Virus record (IMG/VR): IMGVR_UViG_3300029248_000066
From: a virus
Lineage: Duplodnaviria > Heunggongvirae > Uroviricota > Caudoviricetes
Direction: 5' to 3' (one strand)
DNA length: 6,151 bases
Shown here: piece by piece, positions 1-6,151 of the stretch
How the letters are laid out: the number at the start of each line of letters is the position of its first letter
How positions within the stretch are numbered: position 1 is the stretch's first letter
The notes under the pieces: generated by a model
The model's database searches: none
What the model saw: the letters and a program-made list of their open reading frames with translations, nothing else
What the model was told of the DNA's origin: nothing
Translations under genes and position numbers: made by a program

Positions 1-234
1 TGGCGAGCAAGTGATACGATGTTAATCGCCTGCCAGAACGTTACTCCACTTCTTCAGGTTGCGGAGCACCGCGAAGCCGGTCGCTTTACTTCTATCAGTC
101 AGGAATATCCCCTGATACTCAGCAAGGCGCGAGCAATCCTTGCCAGAGAAACGGCGCATGTAAAATTCCAACCGTGGCAGGATGATAAGTGGAGCAGGGT
201 ATTGCCACATTTGCGTCAGGCTAGATTGCAATAG
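1..234 (+). CDS. Hypothetical protein, C-terminal part (open to the window start; first in-window ATG at 19)
   Basis: Frame is open from position 1 to TAG at 232-234. Same strand as all downstream phage genes. No recognisable family. A mirror ORF of almost equal length exists on the minus strand, so strand assignment is uncertain. Confidence 0.3.
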   Translation, partial: WRASDTMLIACQNVTPLLQVAEHREAGRFTSISQEYPLILSKARAILARETAHVKFQPWQDDKWSRVLPHLRQARLQ

Positions 235-396: not shown

Positions 397-597
397 ATGA
401 TGTATTCAGTGACTTTCGATGATACTGGACGAGTAGAAGATATTGAACTAGATCGTGAGGTTAGAGCCGGAGATAGACTCTCTCTTAATATTGATGGTCT
501 TGATGGTATTTATATAGTCATGACTGTTAGCGGCCCTATCTATGAAAATGTTTGTATGCCAATGAATATCCGGGTTCAAAAGTATTGGAAGCAATGA
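397..597 (+). CDS. Hypothetical small protein (66 aa), first gene of the AT-rich insertion
   Basis: ATG-initiated ORF ending TGA 595-597, followed directly by a terminator-like hairpin. AT-rich relative to the flanking phage genes. No strong Shine-Dalgarno seen and no family recognised. Confidence 0.4.
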   Translation: MMYSVTFDDTGRVEDIELDREVRAGDRLSLNIDGLDGIYIVMTVSGPIYENVCMPMNIRVQKYWKQ

Positions 598-602
598 TGT
601 AT

Positions 603-631
603 AATCCCCTCAGATGCTCGAGGGGATTTTT
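603..631 (+). terminator. Intrinsic-terminator-like hairpin (9-bp stem AATCCCCTC/GAGGGGATT, 8-nt loop) followed by a T-run
   Basis: Perfect 9-bp complementarity between 603-611 and 620-628, followed by TTTTT then AT. The right arm (GAGGGG) doubles as the likely Shine-Dalgarno for the ATG at 632. Confidence 0.5.
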
Positions 632-859
632 ATGTCAGACTGGAACATTGCAGCAAAACCGCAAAAGGAACGTGACAAGGTAAGCGTTGGCCTTGCGCTT
701 TCAGGTGTAGCGTATAAAGAACGCCCGAACATGCCGGTTATAGCTAAACAGGTAGCTAGAGAACAACTTGGGCATCTCCGCGAGTACTTAATGGATCGCG
801 TCCGTTATTACCGTAAGCAGAGCATCACCTTCCAAAAGCATCCGAACCACGCTACATAG
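632..859 (+). CDS. Hypothetical small basic protein (75 aa)
   Basis: ATG at 632 lies 6 nt downstream of GAGGGG (620-625); stop TAG 857-859. The ORF track's upstream ATG at 614 sits in the hairpin loop with no Shine-Dalgarno, so 632 is preferred. GC content is host-like. No family recognised. Confidence 0.5.
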   Translation: MSDWNIAAKPQKERDKVSVGLALSGVAYKERPNMPVIAKQVAREQLGHLREYLMDRVRYYRKQSITFQKHPNHAT

Positions 860-874
860 AAATGGCAGACTTAA

Positions 875-1462
875 ATGCAAGAAAATGAAAAGCAAGAGCA
901 GCATGAAACTGAACCTCAGGATTTAGATTTTCCAGCAGAATTTGACTCTCTGATTAATGCAAATGGAAAGATAACACCTGCATTGCTAACGGTAGTTAAC
1001 CGGTATTTTTTATATTTTTCATTCTTTGAATCACTTCTTTTGGGGTGTTCTGGAAGTCAGGGGAAGAGTTCGAAATACGCAGCGAAATTGTTGGAATTCA
1101 AATTAGTTGATCTTGACGTTCTTAAGCGAACATACTTCTTTTTTGCAGACCGTTATCTGGCAGATGTAGTGAAGTTTGAAAACCTATGTGGTGATTTAGA
1201 GCATACATCGCAGAAGGCTAGGGATGAAAAAATTAAGGCCATGCAATTAAAGACAAACGACCCTGAAATTCAGTTAGGTGTTTGTATTTTTGTTTGTTTC
1301 AGGTTGCGAAACAACCTTTTTCATGGACCAAAATGGCGTTATTTGCTTGATGGGCAAGAGGATTTGCTCTTAATTGCCGGAAATTTTATACATTCTATTC
1401 TATTACAGGTGCCTAGTAGAGATGGCTGGGAATTCAAGAATATTTTAACTTCTACTGATTAG
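875..1462 (+). CDS. Hypothetical protein (195 aa), AT-rich, with C-terminal HEPN-like motif R145-N-N-L-F-H150 (candidate HEPN RNase / toxin or abortive-infection effector)
   Basis: Single long ORF, ATG 875 to TAG 1460-1462. Manual counts suggest under 40% GC against about 50% for neighbouring phage genes. Codons 1307-1324 encode RNNLFH, which fits the HEPN active-site signature Rx4-6H in its common R-N-x-x-x-H form. Acidic N-terminus. Confidence 0.6.
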   Translation: MQENEKQEQHETEPQDLDFPAEFDSLINANGKITPALLTVVNRYFLYFSFFESLLLGCSGSQGKSSKYAAKLLEFKLVDLDVLKRTYFFFADRYLADVVKFENLCGDLEHTSQKARDEKIKAMQLKTNDPEIQLGVCIFVCFRLRNNLFHGPKWRYLLDGQEDLLLIAGNFIHSILLQVPSRDGWEFKNILTSTD

Positions 1463-1529
1463 CTTTGATTTTCCATAATCAACCCGCCATAATCATGTCA
1501 TCGGAGCCTGAACAACTCCGGTGACTTCT

Positions 1530-1553
1530 GCGCTTTGAGGGGACTCAAAGTGC
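1530..1553. other. Stable hairpin / palindrome (10-bp stem with one G-U pair, GGGA loop) in the intergenic region, without a U-tract
   Basis: CTTTGAG (1533-1539) pairs with CTCAAAG (1544-1550), extendable by 3 bp. No T-run on either strand, so not a classical intrinsic terminator. Confidence 0.3.
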
Positions 1554-1647
1554 AAACGACAATCAGAACACCTTTCAACCAGTCACAGATGCAGAAATGC
1601 ACCTGCGATTTTTTGCATCCAACGTTTGACCTCTGCGGAGGTGAAGC

Positions 1648-2103
1648 GTGAACCTCCCACAAGACGGCATCAAATTACATCGCGGTAACTTCACCGCTAT
1701 CGGTAAGCAGATCCAGCCTTATCTGGAGGACGGAAAATGCTTTCGCATGGTGCTTAAACCGTGGCGCGAGAGACGCAGTCTTTCCCAGAATGCACTCAGC
1801 CACATGTGGTACAGCGAAATCAGTGAGTACCTCATCAGCAGGGGGAAATCGTTCGCTACTGCAGCATGGGTAAAAGATGCTCTCAAACACACATACCTCG
1901 GTTATGAAACCAAGGACCTGGTTGATGTCGTAACCGGCGAAATCACTACGATCCAGTCGTTACGCCATACCTCCGATCTTGATACCGGAGAGATGTATGT
2001 CTTCCTGTGTAAGGTTGAAGCCTGGGCGATGAATATTGGCTGCCACCTGACTATTCCGCAGAGCTGCGAGTTCCAGCTGCTGCGCGACAAGCAGGAGGCG
2101 TAA
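1648..2103 (+). CDS. ybcN: YbcN-like protein (DLP12 prophage DNA base-flipping protein family, NinB/Orf-like), 151 aa
   Basis: Translation is near-identical to the recalled E. coli K-12 DLP12 YbcN ([15 protein letters not shown]...QLLRDKQEA). GTG start at 1648 with GGAGG (1636-1640) 7 nt upstream. Stop TAA overlaps the ninE ATG (TAATG). Confidence 0.9.
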
Positions 2104-3750: not shown

Positions 3751-3919
3751 TCGTGTAAATCTGATATTTTGCCAATGTTGTACGCACTGGCAGTAATCCA
3801 AATTCAAGCTCGAGGTTTAAAGCCTTGGGCTTTTCTGTTTCTGGGCGGTGAGTATCCTTCCGACGTACCCCAGCCAGGGTGTCTTCAGCTGTTGAGTTGA
3901 TATTGCTTAACCCTCTGTT

Positions 3920-4059: not shown

Positions 4060-4365
4060 ATGCACGAAAAAGAGAGCCTTGCCGGAGCGTTCTGGCTCGT
4101 TTTGCTGATCATCGCAGGTTGGGGCGGTCTGGTCCGCTACCTGATAGATGTGAAGCAGAGTAAAGCAACGTGGAGTTGGATAAATGCTCTGGCTCAGATA
4201 GTGGTATCAGGATTCACCGGTGTTATTGGTGGCCTGATCAGCATCGAAAGTGGATTCAGTATTTACATGATTCTCGCGACAGCGGGGATTAGTGGTGCGA
4301 TGGGTTCGGTTGCACTGACGTACTTCTGGGAACGACTGACAGGGGTGAAAAATGCAAAATCTTAA
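4060..4365 (+). CDS. Putative holin (class I-like, three predicted transmembrane segments, charged C-terminus); alternative upstream TTG start at 4048
   Basis: Small membrane protein with three hydrophobic stretches (AFWLVLLIIAGWGGLV; WINALAQIVVSGFTGVIGGLISI; IYMILATAGISGAMGSVALTYFW) and basic tail ERLTGVKNAKS. It immediately precedes and overlaps the endolysin R gene by 14 nt. Not a lambda S homologue by sequence. Confidence 0.75.
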   Translation: MHEKESLAGAFWLVLLIIAGWGGLVRYLIDVKQSKATWSWINALAQIVVSGFTGVIGGLISIESGFSIYMILATAGISGAMGSVALTYFWERLTGVKNAKS

Positions 4366-4827
4366 TCCTCAGCGTAAGGCTTTCCTCGATATGGTGGCAT
4401 GGTCAGAAGGAACGGATAACGGGCGACAACCGACACGTAATCACGGTTATGATGTTATTGTTGGCGGCGAACTGTTTACTGATTACTCTGATCACCCTCG
4501 CAAACTTGTCACGTTAAACCCCAAACTCAAATCAACAGCCGCCGGACGTTATCAGCTTCTTTCACGCTNNNNNNNNNNNNNNNNNNNNNNNNNNNNNNNN
4601 NNNNNNNNNNNNNNNNNNNNNNNNNNNNNNNGGCATTGCAGCAGATTAAAGAGCGTGGCGCTTTACCGATGATTGATCGCGGTGATATCCGTCAGGCTAT
4701 CGATCGTTGCAGCAATATCTGGGCGTCGTTACCTGGTGCAGGTTACGGTCAGTATGAACATAAAATCGGTGACCTGATTTCCCGGTTTAAAGAGGTTGGC
4801 GGGGTGGTAAATGAAGTTGAGCTATAA
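4352..4827 (+). CDS. R: Endolysin R, lambda-type lytic transglycosylase, interrupted by a 63-nt N-run (4569-4631)
   Basis: Both halves match recalled lambda R closely (N-terminal ...QRKAFLDM.AWSEGTDNGRQ.TRNHGYDVIVGGELFTDYSDHPRKLVTLNPKLKST.AGRYQLLSR, C-terminal ALQQIKERGALPMIDRGDIRQAIDRCSNIWASLPGAGYGQ), including the WSEGT catalytic glutamate region. ATG 4352 is preceded by GGGGTG. The span is 476 nt against the 477 expected, so the two halves are out of frame by 1 nt across the N-run. Confidence 0.85.
4569..4631. other. Run of 63 N (assembly gap or masked sequence) inside the endolysin gene
   Basis: Directly visible as n characters. Confidence 0.99.
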
Positions 4828-5344: not shown

Positions 5345-6151
5345 ATGGAAAGAGGTGTGGTATTTAGTGCATGCGAATTACTTAAAACCGAGGATGGAAA
5401 AGGCATCCGTACAGGTAAATGGATTAGTCAATTAGAAATAAACTATCTATGTCTTTATTGGGATAAACTAGTTTCACCCACTAATAATATTATACATACA
5501 GCATTAAATAACGAGGATGAATTAGAAAAATGTGGATTGCTAACCAGACCTGTATATAGACATCATGGTTGTTTTGATGGCCAATATATGGCTGATTTTT
5601 ATGCTGAAACTCATGCCAAAACAATAGATATACTTAGGCATGCGGATTCTTCTGTCGATTGGCGCATGCATTTTTTAAGTGACCAAATAAACTTGGTGCC
5701 TGAATTATCTAGAACCTCAGAAGTGATACGTTTTGAGCTAGCAAATTTATTACCCGTTCCCACAGAAGATGTGCACCTACATGATATTCTTGATTTCAAG
5801 GAAAGAAGAAAACCTGAATTAATCGCTTTACATGAATATCTTGATGAGCTTTACTTGGAAATAAAACGTTCTGGTGATATCAATCTTCAGAAAGCAAAAG
5901 CTCTTTCTAATCTTAAACAAGCAATAAAGGATATTGAACGCTTAAATTGTGAAGTGTGGAAAAGTCCAATAAAATTTAGCATCTCCACTTCCTTTGAGTT
6001 CGATTTTTCACAAATATTTAGTCTGGCGGGAACTGTTTTATCTATGTCAGTAGATTATCCTTATAATGTTATTGGAGGGGTAAGTAGTTTTGCTTATTTT
6101 TTGGGAGGATGCATAAAAATAAAGCCACAATTTCAACAAGTGTTATCATTA
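5345..6151 (+). CDS. Hypothetical protein, AT-rich moron-like gene, at least 269 aa (3' end beyond window); function unknown
   Basis: ATG 5345 with AGGAG (5334-5338) 6 nt upstream. Manual translation (MERGVVFSACELLKTEDGKGIRTGKWISQLEINYLCLYWDKLVSP...) is open for 269 codons to the window end. Missing from the ORF track because no stop lies inside the window. Manual GC counts of about 30-42% per 60 nt against about 50% for the adjacent lysis genes. No family recognised. Confidence 0.6.
   Translation, partial: MERGVVFSACELLKTEDGKGIRTGKWISQLEINYLCLYWDKLVSPTNNIIHTALNNEDELEKCGLLTRPVYRHHGCFDGQYMADFYAETHAKTIDILRHADSSVDWRMHFLSDQINLVPELSRTSEVIRFELANLLPVPTEDVHLHDILDFKERRKPELIALHEYLDELYLEIKRSGDINLQKAKALSNLKQAIKDIERLNCEVWKSPIKFSISTSFEFDFSQIFSLAGTVLSMSVDYPYNVIGGVSSFAYFLGGCIKIKPQFQQVLSL

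What the first reader, a model, noticed from the sequence alone, without database searches (positions are those of the whole stretch)
397..1462. AT-rich three-gene insertion in the nin region: possible toxin / abortive-infection module
Three co-directional ORFs (66 aa, 75 aa, 195 aa) sit immediately upstream of the conserved ybcN-ninE-ybcO-rusA cluster. The first and third are markedly AT-rich, which suggests horizontal acquisition. The largest carries a HEPN-type motif, and two small partner proteins plus a terminator/RBS hairpin between them resemble toxin-antitoxin or Abi operon architecture. None of the three matches a nin-region gene I can recall from lambda or DLP12.
Basis: partly seen in the sequence, partly recalled or inferred. 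Interest (0 to 1): 0.7.

Follow-up and report, generated by a model that had tools for sequence, protein, structure and literature searches.

The report
Prophage cargo gene with HEPN-type motif
The three small genes are not one toxin-antitoxin operon: the middle one is a known phage copy of a DNA-polymerase accessory subunit, and the 195-aa gene is an uncharacterised, widely spread protein with a nuclease-type motif, sitting in the prophage slot that holds a proven anti-phage nuclease (HepS) in sister prophages.

Summary
Three co-directional ORFs lie at 397-597, 632-859 and 875-1462. The first and third are AT-rich (GC 0.38 and 0.37, against about 0.50 in the flanks). A strong hairpin with a T-run lies between ORF1 and ORF2.

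The three-gene toxin/Abi reading is only partly right.
- ORF2 is a homologue of the DNA polymerase III theta subunit (phage P1 Hot). Its C-terminal tail is frameshifted.
- ORF1 is an orphan that travels with the upstream antirepressor-like gene, not with ORF3.
- ORF3 (orfC) stands alone. It belongs to an unannotated family of 545 clusters across Proteobacteria. The family has an invariant R-x-R-N-N-L-F-H-G-x-K-W block, which is an Rx4H HEPN-type signature. The fold is all-alpha, selection is purifying, and no partner gene is conserved.

orfC fills a hypervariable slot between the theta stop codon and a conserved linker before ybcN/ninB. In E. coli 95-3322 the same slot holds a HepS homologue. 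HepS is the experimentally proven single-protein HEPN abortive-infection nuclease. Another allele holds PADLOC candidate PDC-S67.

The parts
19..234 (+). 3' end of an antirepressor-like gene (P22AR C-terminal domain; full length 202 aa in E. coli LR-50). It is the first gene of the variably present block.
   Evidence: Pfam PF10548, E 6e-5, and phrog_7640, E 1.5e-41. Annotated in LR-50. Absent together with orfA, theta and orfC from the sister prophage in EFF60.
397..597 (+). orfA: 66-aa orphan protein, predicted all-beta, function unknown. It travels with the upstream antirepressor-like gene.
   Evidence: phrog_38858 (unknown function), E 2e-49. No Pfam, PADLOC or NCBIfam hit. Only 9 hits, E. 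coli or unnamed metagenome/assembly records; the cluster also has Enterobacter members. AF2 gives five strands at pLDDT 65. Present with P22AR-C in L002, L003 and L097, including loci without orfC.
600..633 (+). Conserved TATAAT hexamer (600-605) abutting a 9-bp GC-rich hairpin (603-628) and a T-run. It is a tR2-like intrinsic terminator or insulator. Its 3' arm, GAGGGG, is the Shine-Dalgarno sequence of theta.
   Evidence: Terminator scan. Fold dG -20.4, z -4.8. Conserved in window, KO-TP1, RothD, Klebsiella and E. coli loci. Similarity to Klebsiella theta modules begins at about 592-600.
632..859 (+). orfB: homologue of DNA polymerase III theta subunit / phage P1 Hot, 75 aa. Core residues 1-65 are intact. 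A 1-nt deletion at about 827-828 replaces the ancestral tail. The ancestral tail is still readable in the +2 frame at 829-888, ending in a TGA that overlapped the orfC ATG.
   Evidence: PF06440, 87.3 bits. PDB 1SE7/2IDO Hot, E 1.6e-24. 63.5% identity to P1 Hot. PGAP flags it 'frameshifted' in LR-50. Frame comparison with L008 and KO-TP1.
875..1462 (+). orfC: 195-aa all-alpha protein of an unannotated family. Candidate stand-alone HEPN-like effector. It is the cargo gene of the theta-to-ybcN slot.
   Evidence: 40 enterobacterial homologues, none with Pfam domains. 545 cluster representatives at E<=1e-3. AF2 pLDDT 83.7, eight helices. dN/dS 0.08-0.18. No conserved neighbour in 80 genomes.
1283..1336 (+). 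Codons for the invariant block C137-W154 (CIFVCFRLRNNLFHGPKW), which contains the Rx4H signature R145...H150.
   Evidence: Alignments A1, A2 and A5.
1463..1647 (+). Conserved linker preceding ybcN/ninB; right boundary of the cargo slot. It contains a -35/-10-like pair (1465-1493) and a terminator-like hairpin (1590-1607). A second copy lies upstream of the P22AR-C gene in LR-50 and other E. coli prophages.
   Evidence: Matches 2890 E. coli records and phages HK639 and 82. Two copies in L001, L002, L003 and L097; one copy in EFF60. Promoter and terminator scan.
1648..2103 (+). ybcN (NinB-like), first gene of the conserved ybcN-ninE-ybcO-rusA-ylcG-Q backbone. It is context, not part of the cargo.
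   Evidence: Annotation of LR-50. Weak PF05772 NinB hit.

Best explanation
The region is a mosaic of two accessory modules in the early-right (nin) region of a lambdoid E. coli prophage. It is not one operon of three partners.

Module 1 is an antirepressor-like gene plus the orphan orfA. It ends at a terminator-type hairpin.

Module 2 starts at that hairpin. It consists of a phage theta/Hot homologue followed by a cargo slot. The slot's left edge is the theta stop codon and its right edge is a conserved linker of about 155-190 bp in front of ybcN/ninB. By homology to P1 Hot, theta binds and stabilises the epsilon proofreading subunit of Pol III. Cargo genes are translationally coupled to theta.

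In this window the slot holds orfC. The most likely mechanism (inferred, not shown) is that orfC is a stand-alone, metal-independent HEPN-type endoribonuclease. It would oligomerise so that two R145-x4-H150 motifs, with N146/N147 and helped by E52, R93 and K153, form a composite active site. It would stay inactive until a phage-derived cue appears, then cleave tRNA or other RNA and abort infection by competing phages. That is the mode of action shown for HepS, which occupies the same slot in sister prophages.

Shown: the gene identities of theta and HepS, the slot architecture, and the conservation, distribution and solo status of orfC. Inferred: RNase activity, defence role, trigger, and expression in the lysogen.
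For: Theta identity.

Slot architecture:
- In 80 IMG/VR theta loci the gap from theta to ninB/ybcN/DUF1367 varies from 236 to 1269 nt. It holds at least 12 unrelated cargo families: orfC in 4, HepS in 2, PDC-S67 in 1, UmuD-like in 6, and several unknowns.
- In 64 of 74 loci with a cargo ORF, it starts within -14 to +17 nt of the theta stop.
- In the ancestral arrangement (L008, L168) the orfC ATG lies 14 nt inside theta.

Same-slot HepS: the protein at L003 4629-5261 matches PDB 9OIJ HepS at E 2e-107. HepS is an experimentally validated single-protein HEPN Abi and anticodon nuclease of the Gifsy-1 prophage (PMC13043305).

orfC family:
- Invariant E52, R93, R145, N147, H150, G151 and K153 across 45 and then 50 distant members.
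- N or H directly follows the R, as in HEPN signatures.
- All-alpha model at pLDDT 83.7, with the motif followed by one terminal helix.
- Purifying selection.
- No conserved neighbour; contexts are mobile or defence-like, with integrases, a Pycsar TIR effector, Mrr, HipA, HicB and a T4SS coupling protein.
- More distant relatives also sit in phage nin regions (L123, L124).
- Low GC. IS-disrupted and truncated alleles exist.
Against: - No profile-level link to HEPN. None of 95 family members hits any Pfam HEPN-clan model. Profiles A1 and A2 hit nothing in the PDB at E<=10. hhalign against the HepS family gives probability 0.2%.
- No PADLOC hit for orfC.
- No orfC homologue in 50,697 sequenced phage records.
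- orfC is co-directional with, and embedded in, the delayed-early operon, with no convincing promoter of its own. It may therefore be expressed during lytic growth rather than in the lysogen.
- No experimental data exist.
Confidence: 0.45

Rival explanations
1. The three ORFs form one toxin-antitoxin or abortive-infection operon, in which the 195-aa HEPN protein is the toxin and the two small proteins neutralise or regulate it.
For: The ORFs are co-directional and tightly spaced. HEPN toxins commonly pair with small antitoxins (general knowledge). orfC nearly always has theta or a theta remnant upstream: 15 of 17 IMG/VR loci, and also L002, L005-8 and L013-15.
Against: - ORF2 is a theta/Hot homologue and lies at this position in phages that lack orfC.
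- Theta is frameshifted or fragmentary next to intact orfC in the window, L002, L005-7, L013-15, L111, L112 and L114.
- orfA accompanies only the E. coli copies and also occurs without orfC.
- A terminator-type hairpin separates orfA from theta.
- Distant family members have no conserved small neighbour.
Confidence: 0.05
2. orfC works for the phage during lytic development rather than for the lysogen. As a delayed-early gene coupled to theta, it would be an RNase or RNA-binding factor used for host takeover, counter-defence or replication-linked functions.
For: - orfC is embedded in the pR-driven nin operon behind a tR2-like terminator, in the same orientation, with no significant promoter prediction of its own.
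- Its start codon ancestrally overlapped theta, a replication accessory gene.
- Neighbours of the slot are recombination and replication genes.
Against: - HepS, a proven defence, has the same theta-coupled arrangement in E. coli 95-3322 and L170. So the arrangement does not predict a lytic role.
- No sequenced, propagating phage in INPHARED carries orfC.
- Relatives in other Proteobacteria sit in non-phage variable islands.
- IS-disrupted alleles persist in otherwise similar prophages.
Confidence: 0.2
3. orfC is not an enzyme. The RNNLFHG block would be a structural or binding element of a helical regulator, for example a protein-protein inhibitor. The Rx4H resemblance to HEPN would be coincidental.
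For: There is no profile similarity to any HEPN family. Top structural matches are generic helical bundles. G151, K153 and W154 next to the motif are not typical HEPN features.
Against: - The invariant residues are polar or charged (E, R, R, N, H, K), as expected for a catalytic or substrate-binding site rather than a hydrophobic core.
- HEPN families are notoriously undetectable by sequence profiles. HepS itself has only sub-threshold Pfam hits and no PADLOC model.
Confidence: 0.2
4. Theta and the downstream HEPN-type protein are a functional pair. The Hot homologue would tie the effector to the replisome (epsilon subunit) as sensor, guard or regulator.
For: Two unrelated Rx4H proteins, orfC and HepS, are each translationally coupled to theta. 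The orfC-theta linkage persists down to 55% orfC identity.
Against: - The same coupling holds for at least 10 unrelated cargo families, including tiny ORFs.
- Salmonella HepS works alone and is not next to theta.
- Theta decays beside intact orfC.
- Distant orfC relatives have no theta.
Confidence: 0.06

Closest known systems
HepS (HEPN Solo defence element, Gifsy-1 prophage of Salmonella Typhimurium; PDB 9OIJ/9OIK; PMC13043305)
   Same: Single all-alpha protein of about 200 aa with an R-N-x-x-x-H motif. Encoded without a conserved partner in the accessory region after the replication genes of lambdoid prophages. A HepS homologue occupies the same theta-to-ybcN slot in E. coli 95-3322 and in IMG/VR contigs L169 and L170.
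HEPN superfamily RNases in general (HepT/DUF86 toxins, AbiA/AbiD/AbiF/AbiJ/AbiV HEPN domains, Tha, Csm6, Cas13, Las1)
   Same: Rx4-6H signature with N/H after the arginine, a helical bundle, a conserved acidic residue in the first core helix, and association with mobile elements and conflict loci.
   Different: Not matched by any Pfam HEPN-clan model (0 of 95 members). No MNT or other antitoxin neighbour. Extra invariant G-x-K-W after the histidine and an invariant R93-Y94.
Phage P1 Hot / E. coli HolE (theta subunit of DNA polymerase III)
   Same: orfB aligns over residues 1-70 with Hot (E 1.6e-24) and HolE (E 7.5e-14), covering the three-helix core that binds epsilon. The same gene lies at the same position in HK639, CobraSix, RothD and KO-TP1.
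   Different: The C-terminal tail is replaced after residue 65 by a 1-nt deletion. PGAP calls it a pseudogene in LR-50. Function of the truncated form is untested.
PADLOC candidate PDC-S67 and other single-gene prophage 'morons'
   Same: PDC-S67 occupies the same slot in IMG/VR contig L200 (E 1e-41), which shows the slot recruits single-gene defence candidates.
   Different: Unrelated protein with a predicted N-terminal membrane segment. orfC has no PADLOC match.

Membership tests
HEPN superfamily | Conserved Rx4-6H motif | tested here: met
   R145-NNLF-H150 is invariant in 23 close homologues and in 45 plus 50 distant family members.
HEPN superfamily | Polar residue (N/H/D) immediately after the motif arginine | tested here: met
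   N146 in most members, H in some (for example P0056 and P0063, 'RLRHNLFHG'); N147 is invariant.
HEPN superfamily | All-alpha up-down helical bundle superposable on solved HEPN domains | tested here: inconclusive
HEPN superfamily | Significant match to a curated HEPN-clan profile | tested here: not met
   No Pfam hit for orfC. None of 45 or 50 family members matches; the only hit is one HEPN_Apea at E 0.16.
HEPN superfamily | Metal-independent endoribonuclease activity dependent on R and H | not testable with these tools
   Needs biochemistry.
HepS family | Sequence homology to HepS (PDB 9OIJ) | tested here: not met
   orfC profiles A1 and A2 have no PDB hit at E<=10. hhalign of A2 against the HepS-family alignment A3 gives probability 0.2%. 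By contrast, the L003 protein hits HepS at 2e-107.
HepS family | Solo gene in the prophage accessory region after replication genes, with no conserved partner | tested here: met
   This feature is shared, but it defines the kind of system, not homology.
DNA polymerase III theta / Hot (orfB) | Match to PF06440 above the gathering score and to solved Hot/theta structures | tested here: met
   87.3 bits against a 34.6 cut-off. 1SE7 at E 1.6e-24 and 1DU2 at E 7.5e-14.
DNA polymerase III theta / Hot (orfB) | Intact full-length reading frame | tested here: not met
   The tail after residue 65 is frameshifted relative to L008, KO-TP1 and 76 of 80 IMG/VR relatives. NCBIfam gives 80.8 bits, below the 97-bit cut-off.
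Toxin-antitoxin / multi-gene Abi operon | Conserved co-occurrence of toxin with its small partner gene(s) | tested here: not met
   orfA is with 4 of 17 close orfC loci. Theta is degraded beside intact orfC in many loci. No conserved neighbour appears in 80 distant loci.
Toxin-antitoxin / multi-gene Abi operon | Partner recognisable as an antitoxin or DNA-binding fold | tested here: not met
   orfA has no family hit and a low-confidence all-beta model. orfB is theta.
Catalogued defence systems (PADLOC v2.0.0) | Match to a PADLOC model | tested here: not met
   No hit for any of the three ORFs. Of 45 family members, only isolated weak hits, the best being PDC-M47A at E 5e-4 in one member.

The most novel reading that the evidence does not exclude
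The orfC family would be a previously unrecognised, Proteobacteria-wide class of stand-alone HEPN-like abortive-infection nucleases with a new trigger. In enterobacterial lambdoid phages it, like HepS, would be functionally wired to the phage theta/Hot homologue. The effector would then monitor the state of the Pol III epsilon-theta module, that is, replisome hijacking by an incoming phage, rather than a structural protein.
Probability: 0.06. Interest if true: 0.8.

Novelty: new member of a known kind. Interest (0 to 1): 0.45.

Why it matters
If orfC is an active solo HEPN-type nuclease, it adds a new family to the single-protein prophage defences exemplified by HepS and Tha. The family has 545 clusters at 50% identity and is absent from Pfam and PADLOC.

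The analysis also defines a sharply bounded cargo slot in lambdoid phages, from the theta stop codon to the pre-ninB linker. The slot already contains one validated system (HepS), one catalogued candidate (PDC-S67) and about ten unknown families. It could therefore be mined systematically for new anti-phage or counter-defence genes.

For annotation, the work corrects the reading of the middle gene (theta/Hot, tail frameshifted). It also shows that the three ORFs should not be treated as one system.

Tried and rejected
- Pfam, PHROGs, PADLOC and NCBIfam scans of all three ORFs identified only theta. orfA and orfC hit only PHROGs of unknown function.
- PDB sequence and profile searches with orfC alignments found nothing.
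- Foldseek of the orfC model against PDB and BFVD found nothing below E = 1. AFDB50 was not available.
- Profile-profile comparison of orfC against the HepS family found no relationship.
- Pfam and PADLOC scans of 95 distant family members, looking for a bridge to a HEPN model, found none.
- A search for a conserved partner gene around 80 distant homologues found at most 6 of 80 sharing any neighbour. Neighbour Pfam content is heterogeneous.
- tblastn of orfC against 50,697 phage records gave no match.
- Rfam and tRNA scans of the window found nothing at gathering level.
- Promoter scan: the number of sigma-70-like sites does not exceed shuffled expectation. No promoter can be assigned to orfC.
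- The orfA structure prediction was low-confidence, and no fold-search jobs remained.
- Literature searches found no paper on this family or on DUF6236. They did find the HepS paper.
- Rejected: theta as antitoxin, orfA as a partner of orfC, and orfC as a HepS homologue.
Full report
**1. What is in the sequence**

The window is the early-right (nin), Q and lysis region of a lambdoid E. coli prophage. Over bases 250-1650 it is 99.8% identical to the chromosome of E. coli LR-50. In LR-50 the surrounding genes are O, P, ren, then a cargo region, then ybcN, ninE, ybcO, rusA, ylcG, Q, holin, lysozyme and Rz, followed by HK97-type head genes.

- The three ORFs of the finding are at the stated coordinates: 397-597 (66 aa, orfA), 632-859 (75 aa, orfB; 81 aa from an upstream ATG) and 875-1462 (195 aa, orfC).
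- GC content is 0.378, 0.487 and 0.369 respectively, against 0.50-0.53 for ybcN to rusA (profile).
- Between orfA and orfB lies a 9-bp GC-rich hairpin followed by a T-run (603-628). Its dG is -20.4 kcal/mol, z = -4.8, and none of 200 shuffles folds as well.
- All three ORFs are under purifying selection.

**2. orfB is a theta/Hot homologue, not an unknown small partner**

- orfB matches Pfam DNA_pol3_theta at 87 bits against a cut-off of 34.6. It matches the PHROG theta families and the solved structures of P1 Hot (1SE7/2IDO, E 1.6e-24) and E. coli theta (E 7.5e-14) over residues 1-70.
- The same gene sits at the same place, after a terminator and just before ninB, in phages HK639, CobraSix, RothD and KO-TP1.
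- Relative to intact relatives (L008, KO-TP1), the window copy has a single-base deletion at about 827-828. This replaces the last 19 or so residues with 10 unrelated ones.
- The ancestral tail LPKASEPRYIEMADLNARK* is still readable in the +2 frame. It ends at a TGA (886-888) that overlaps the orfC ATG at 875. This explains why PGAP marks the gene 'frameshifted' in LR-50.
- The helical core that contacts epsilon is retained. Whether the protein still functions is untested.

**3. orfA belongs to a different module**

- orfA has only 9 hits, E. coli or unnamed metagenome/assembly records; its 90% cluster also has Enterobacter members, and a 48% relative turned up in an IMG/VR contig.
- It has no family assignment beyond an unknown-function PHROG. 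Its all-beta model is low-confidence (pLDDT 65).
- It always follows the antirepressor-like P22AR-C gene, including in prophages where orfC is replaced or disrupted.
- It accompanies only 4 of 17 close orfC homologues and 3 of 80 theta loci.
- Similarity between the window and the Klebsiella or KO-TP1 theta modules begins at the hairpin (about 592-600). The hairpin is thus the left boundary of the theta module.
- The hairpin, an abutting invariant TATAAT and the GAGGGG Shine-Dalgarno sequence in its 3' arm are conserved in 8 of 10 loci.

**4. orfC is a conserved, stand-alone protein with an Rx4H signature**

- The word-indexed search found 40 enterobacterial homologues, all in lambdoid prophage nin regions and none with Pfam domains.
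- The exhaustive profile search found 545 cluster representatives at E <= 1e-3. They are mostly proteins of 160-180 aa from Alpha-, Beta- and Gammaproteobacteria.
- Across these, E52, R93, R145, N147, H150, G151 and K153 are invariant, and F-R-x-R-N-N-L-F-H-G-x-K-W is the family signature.
- This is an Rx4H motif with N or H after the arginine. Together with an acidic residue in the first long helix, it matches the sequence hallmarks of HEPN RNases (established description of the superfamily, from my knowledge).
- The AF2 model is confident (pLDDT 83.7) and all-alpha. The motif lies at the end of the penultimate helix, followed by one terminal helix.
- No Pfam, PADLOC or NCBIfam model matches orfC or any of 95 relatives. 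PDB profile searches are empty.
- I therefore call orfC HEPN-like by motif. Fold evidence is inconclusive and profile membership is not met.

**5. No partner**

- Around 80 distant homologues, no neighbouring gene family is shared by more than 6 loci.
- The neighbours are a mixed bag typical of mobile and defence islands: integrases, MUG113/T5orf172, a Pycsar-type TIR effector, Mrr, DEAD helicases, HipA, HicB and a T4SS coupling protein.
- In Enterobacteriaceae, orfC is nearly always preceded by theta or a theta remnant: 15 of 17 IMG/VR loci, and also L002, L005-8 and L013-15.
- Theta is frameshifted, truncated or vestigial beside intact orfC in many of these loci. It therefore cannot be an essential antitoxin.

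**6. The slot is a cargo hotspot that holds a proven defence gene in sister prophages**

- In E. coli 95-3322 the backbone is the same (P22AR-C, orfA, theta..., ybcN), but orfC is replaced by a 210-aa protein.
- That protein matches PDB 9OIJ/9OIK HepS at E 2e-107. Its relatives give consistent sub-threshold HEPN Pfam hits.
- HepS is a single-protein HEPN abortive-infection system of the Gifsy-1 prophage. It is a tetramer activated by the siphovirus J tail-tip protein, and it then cleaves tRNA anticodon loops (PMC13043305).
- A survey of 80 IMG/VR theta loci shows the interval between theta and ninB/ybcN/DUF1367 ranges from 236 to 1269 nt. It contains at least a dozen unrelated gene families: orfC in 4, HepS in 2, a PADLOC PDC-S67 homologue (E 1e-41), UmuD-like proteins, and several unknown families of 65-216 aa.
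- In 64 of 74 loci with a cargo ORF, it starts within -14 to +17 nt of the theta stop codon. Translational coupling to theta is thus a property of the slot, not of orfC.
- The right boundary is a conserved linker of about 155-190 bp in front of ybcN/ninB (window 1463-1647). It is found in 2890 E. coli records and in HK639 and phage 82.
- In LR-50 this linker occurs twice, bracketing the whole P22AR-C, orfA, theta, orfC block. The sister prophage in EFF60 has one copy and no block. This points to gain or loss by homologous recombination at linker copies.
- orfC is interrupted by IS421 in one E. coli genome and truncated by an IS3 element in another. Truncated members occur in its 90% cluster.

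**7. Most likely mechanism**

- Shown: gene identities, slot architecture, conservation, and the solo status of orfC.
- Inferred: orfC is a metal-independent HEPN-type endoribonuclease that oligomerises to pair its Rx4H motifs. It would act as a latent, trigger-activated effector protecting the lysogen against competing phages, in the manner of HepS.
- I give this about 0.45.
- Main caveats: there is no profile or strong structural link to HEPN. No promoter has been demonstrated that would express orfC in the lysogen. No sequenced phage isolate carries it.
- Rivals: a lytic-cycle role for the phage (0.2); a non-catalytic helical protein (0.2); a theta-effector functional pair (0.06); the original three-gene toxin-antitoxin/Abi operon (0.05).

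**8. Comparison and novelty**

- Theta/Hot is already known.
- orfC is not a homologue of HepS. It is the same kind of element: a solo Rx4H protein in the same prophage slot. If active, it would be a new family of a known kind.
- Interest is moderate. It is a good experimental candidate, and the slot is a well-delimited hunting ground. Nothing in the data is mechanistically surprising.

Noticed in passing
window 5345-6151 (+), runs off the window: A second AT-rich cargo gene (GC 0.34) lies directly after the Rz lysis gene. It encodes a DUF6236 protein (PF19749, E 2.4e-31). It is present in 74 of 5426 E. coli genomes. LR-50 carries a DUF6979 gene at that place instead. No literature was found on DUF6236.
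   Followed up: partly
window 1456-1650; L001 10809-10961 and 13207-13401: The conserved linker in front of ybcN is present twice in LR-50, L002, L003 and L097, about 155 bp at 81% identity in LR-50. The copies flank the P22AR-C, orfA, theta, orfC block. It is present once in EFF60, which lacks the block. In Citrobacter (L009) it precedes the orfC homologue. It looks like a portable recombination boundary. It carries -35/-10-like hexamers and a terminator-like hairpin.
   Followed up: partly
window 600-633: An invariant TATAAT abuts the terminator hairpin, whose 3' arm is the Shine-Dalgarno sequence of theta. A transcript starting just downstream of this -10 would lack the 5' arm and leave the Shine-Dalgarno sequence free. 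Read-through transcripts would terminate or sequester it. This is speculative and no -35 element is conserved.
   Followed up: partly
window 827-888: A single-base deletion in theta codon 66 shifts the frame. The ancestral tail and its stop, which overlaps the orfC ATG, are still readable in the +2 frame. The same lesion is in LR-50 and three IMG/VR contigs, so it is real and lineage-specific.
   Followed up: yes
window 1301-1317: A terminator-like hairpin plus T-run falls exactly on the codons of the RLRNNLFHG motif inside orfC. This is probably a coincidence of the coding sequence.
   Followed up: no
window 4569-4631: A run of 63 N lies inside the lysozyme gene (an assembly gap or masked stretch). 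It splits the ORF into 4352-4672 and 4636-4827.
   Followed up: no
window 3754-3833: A weak Rfam match to the isrJ sRNA (26 bits, below the gathering score of 37; E 0.12) lies just downstream of the Q antiterminator gene, where the late promoter and leader transcript are expected.
   Followed up: no
L001 9298-10716 (LR-50, upstream of the window, minus strand): A 472-aa coiled-coil-rich protein between ren and the cargo block gives a weak PADLOC HEC-07 hit (E 1e-9). It is another possible defence gene in the same accessory region and is also present in EFF60.
   Followed up: no
L004 4001-4401 and L097 4129-5594: orfC alleles are destroyed by insertion sequences, an IS3-family element and IS421, in two E. 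coli genomes. Truncated members (97-158 aa) are in the 90% cluster. This is compatible with a fitness cost or with neutrality.
   Followed up: partly
L200 1115-1699; L190 3246-3896; L195 3251-3730: Other occupants of the theta-to-ninB slot include a PADLOC PDC-S67 homologue (E 1e-41), an unannotated 216-aa protein and an unannotated 159-aa protein whose N-terminus looks hydrophobic by eye (no membrane prediction run), and several families of 65-90 aa. The slot may be worth mining systematically.
   Followed up: partly
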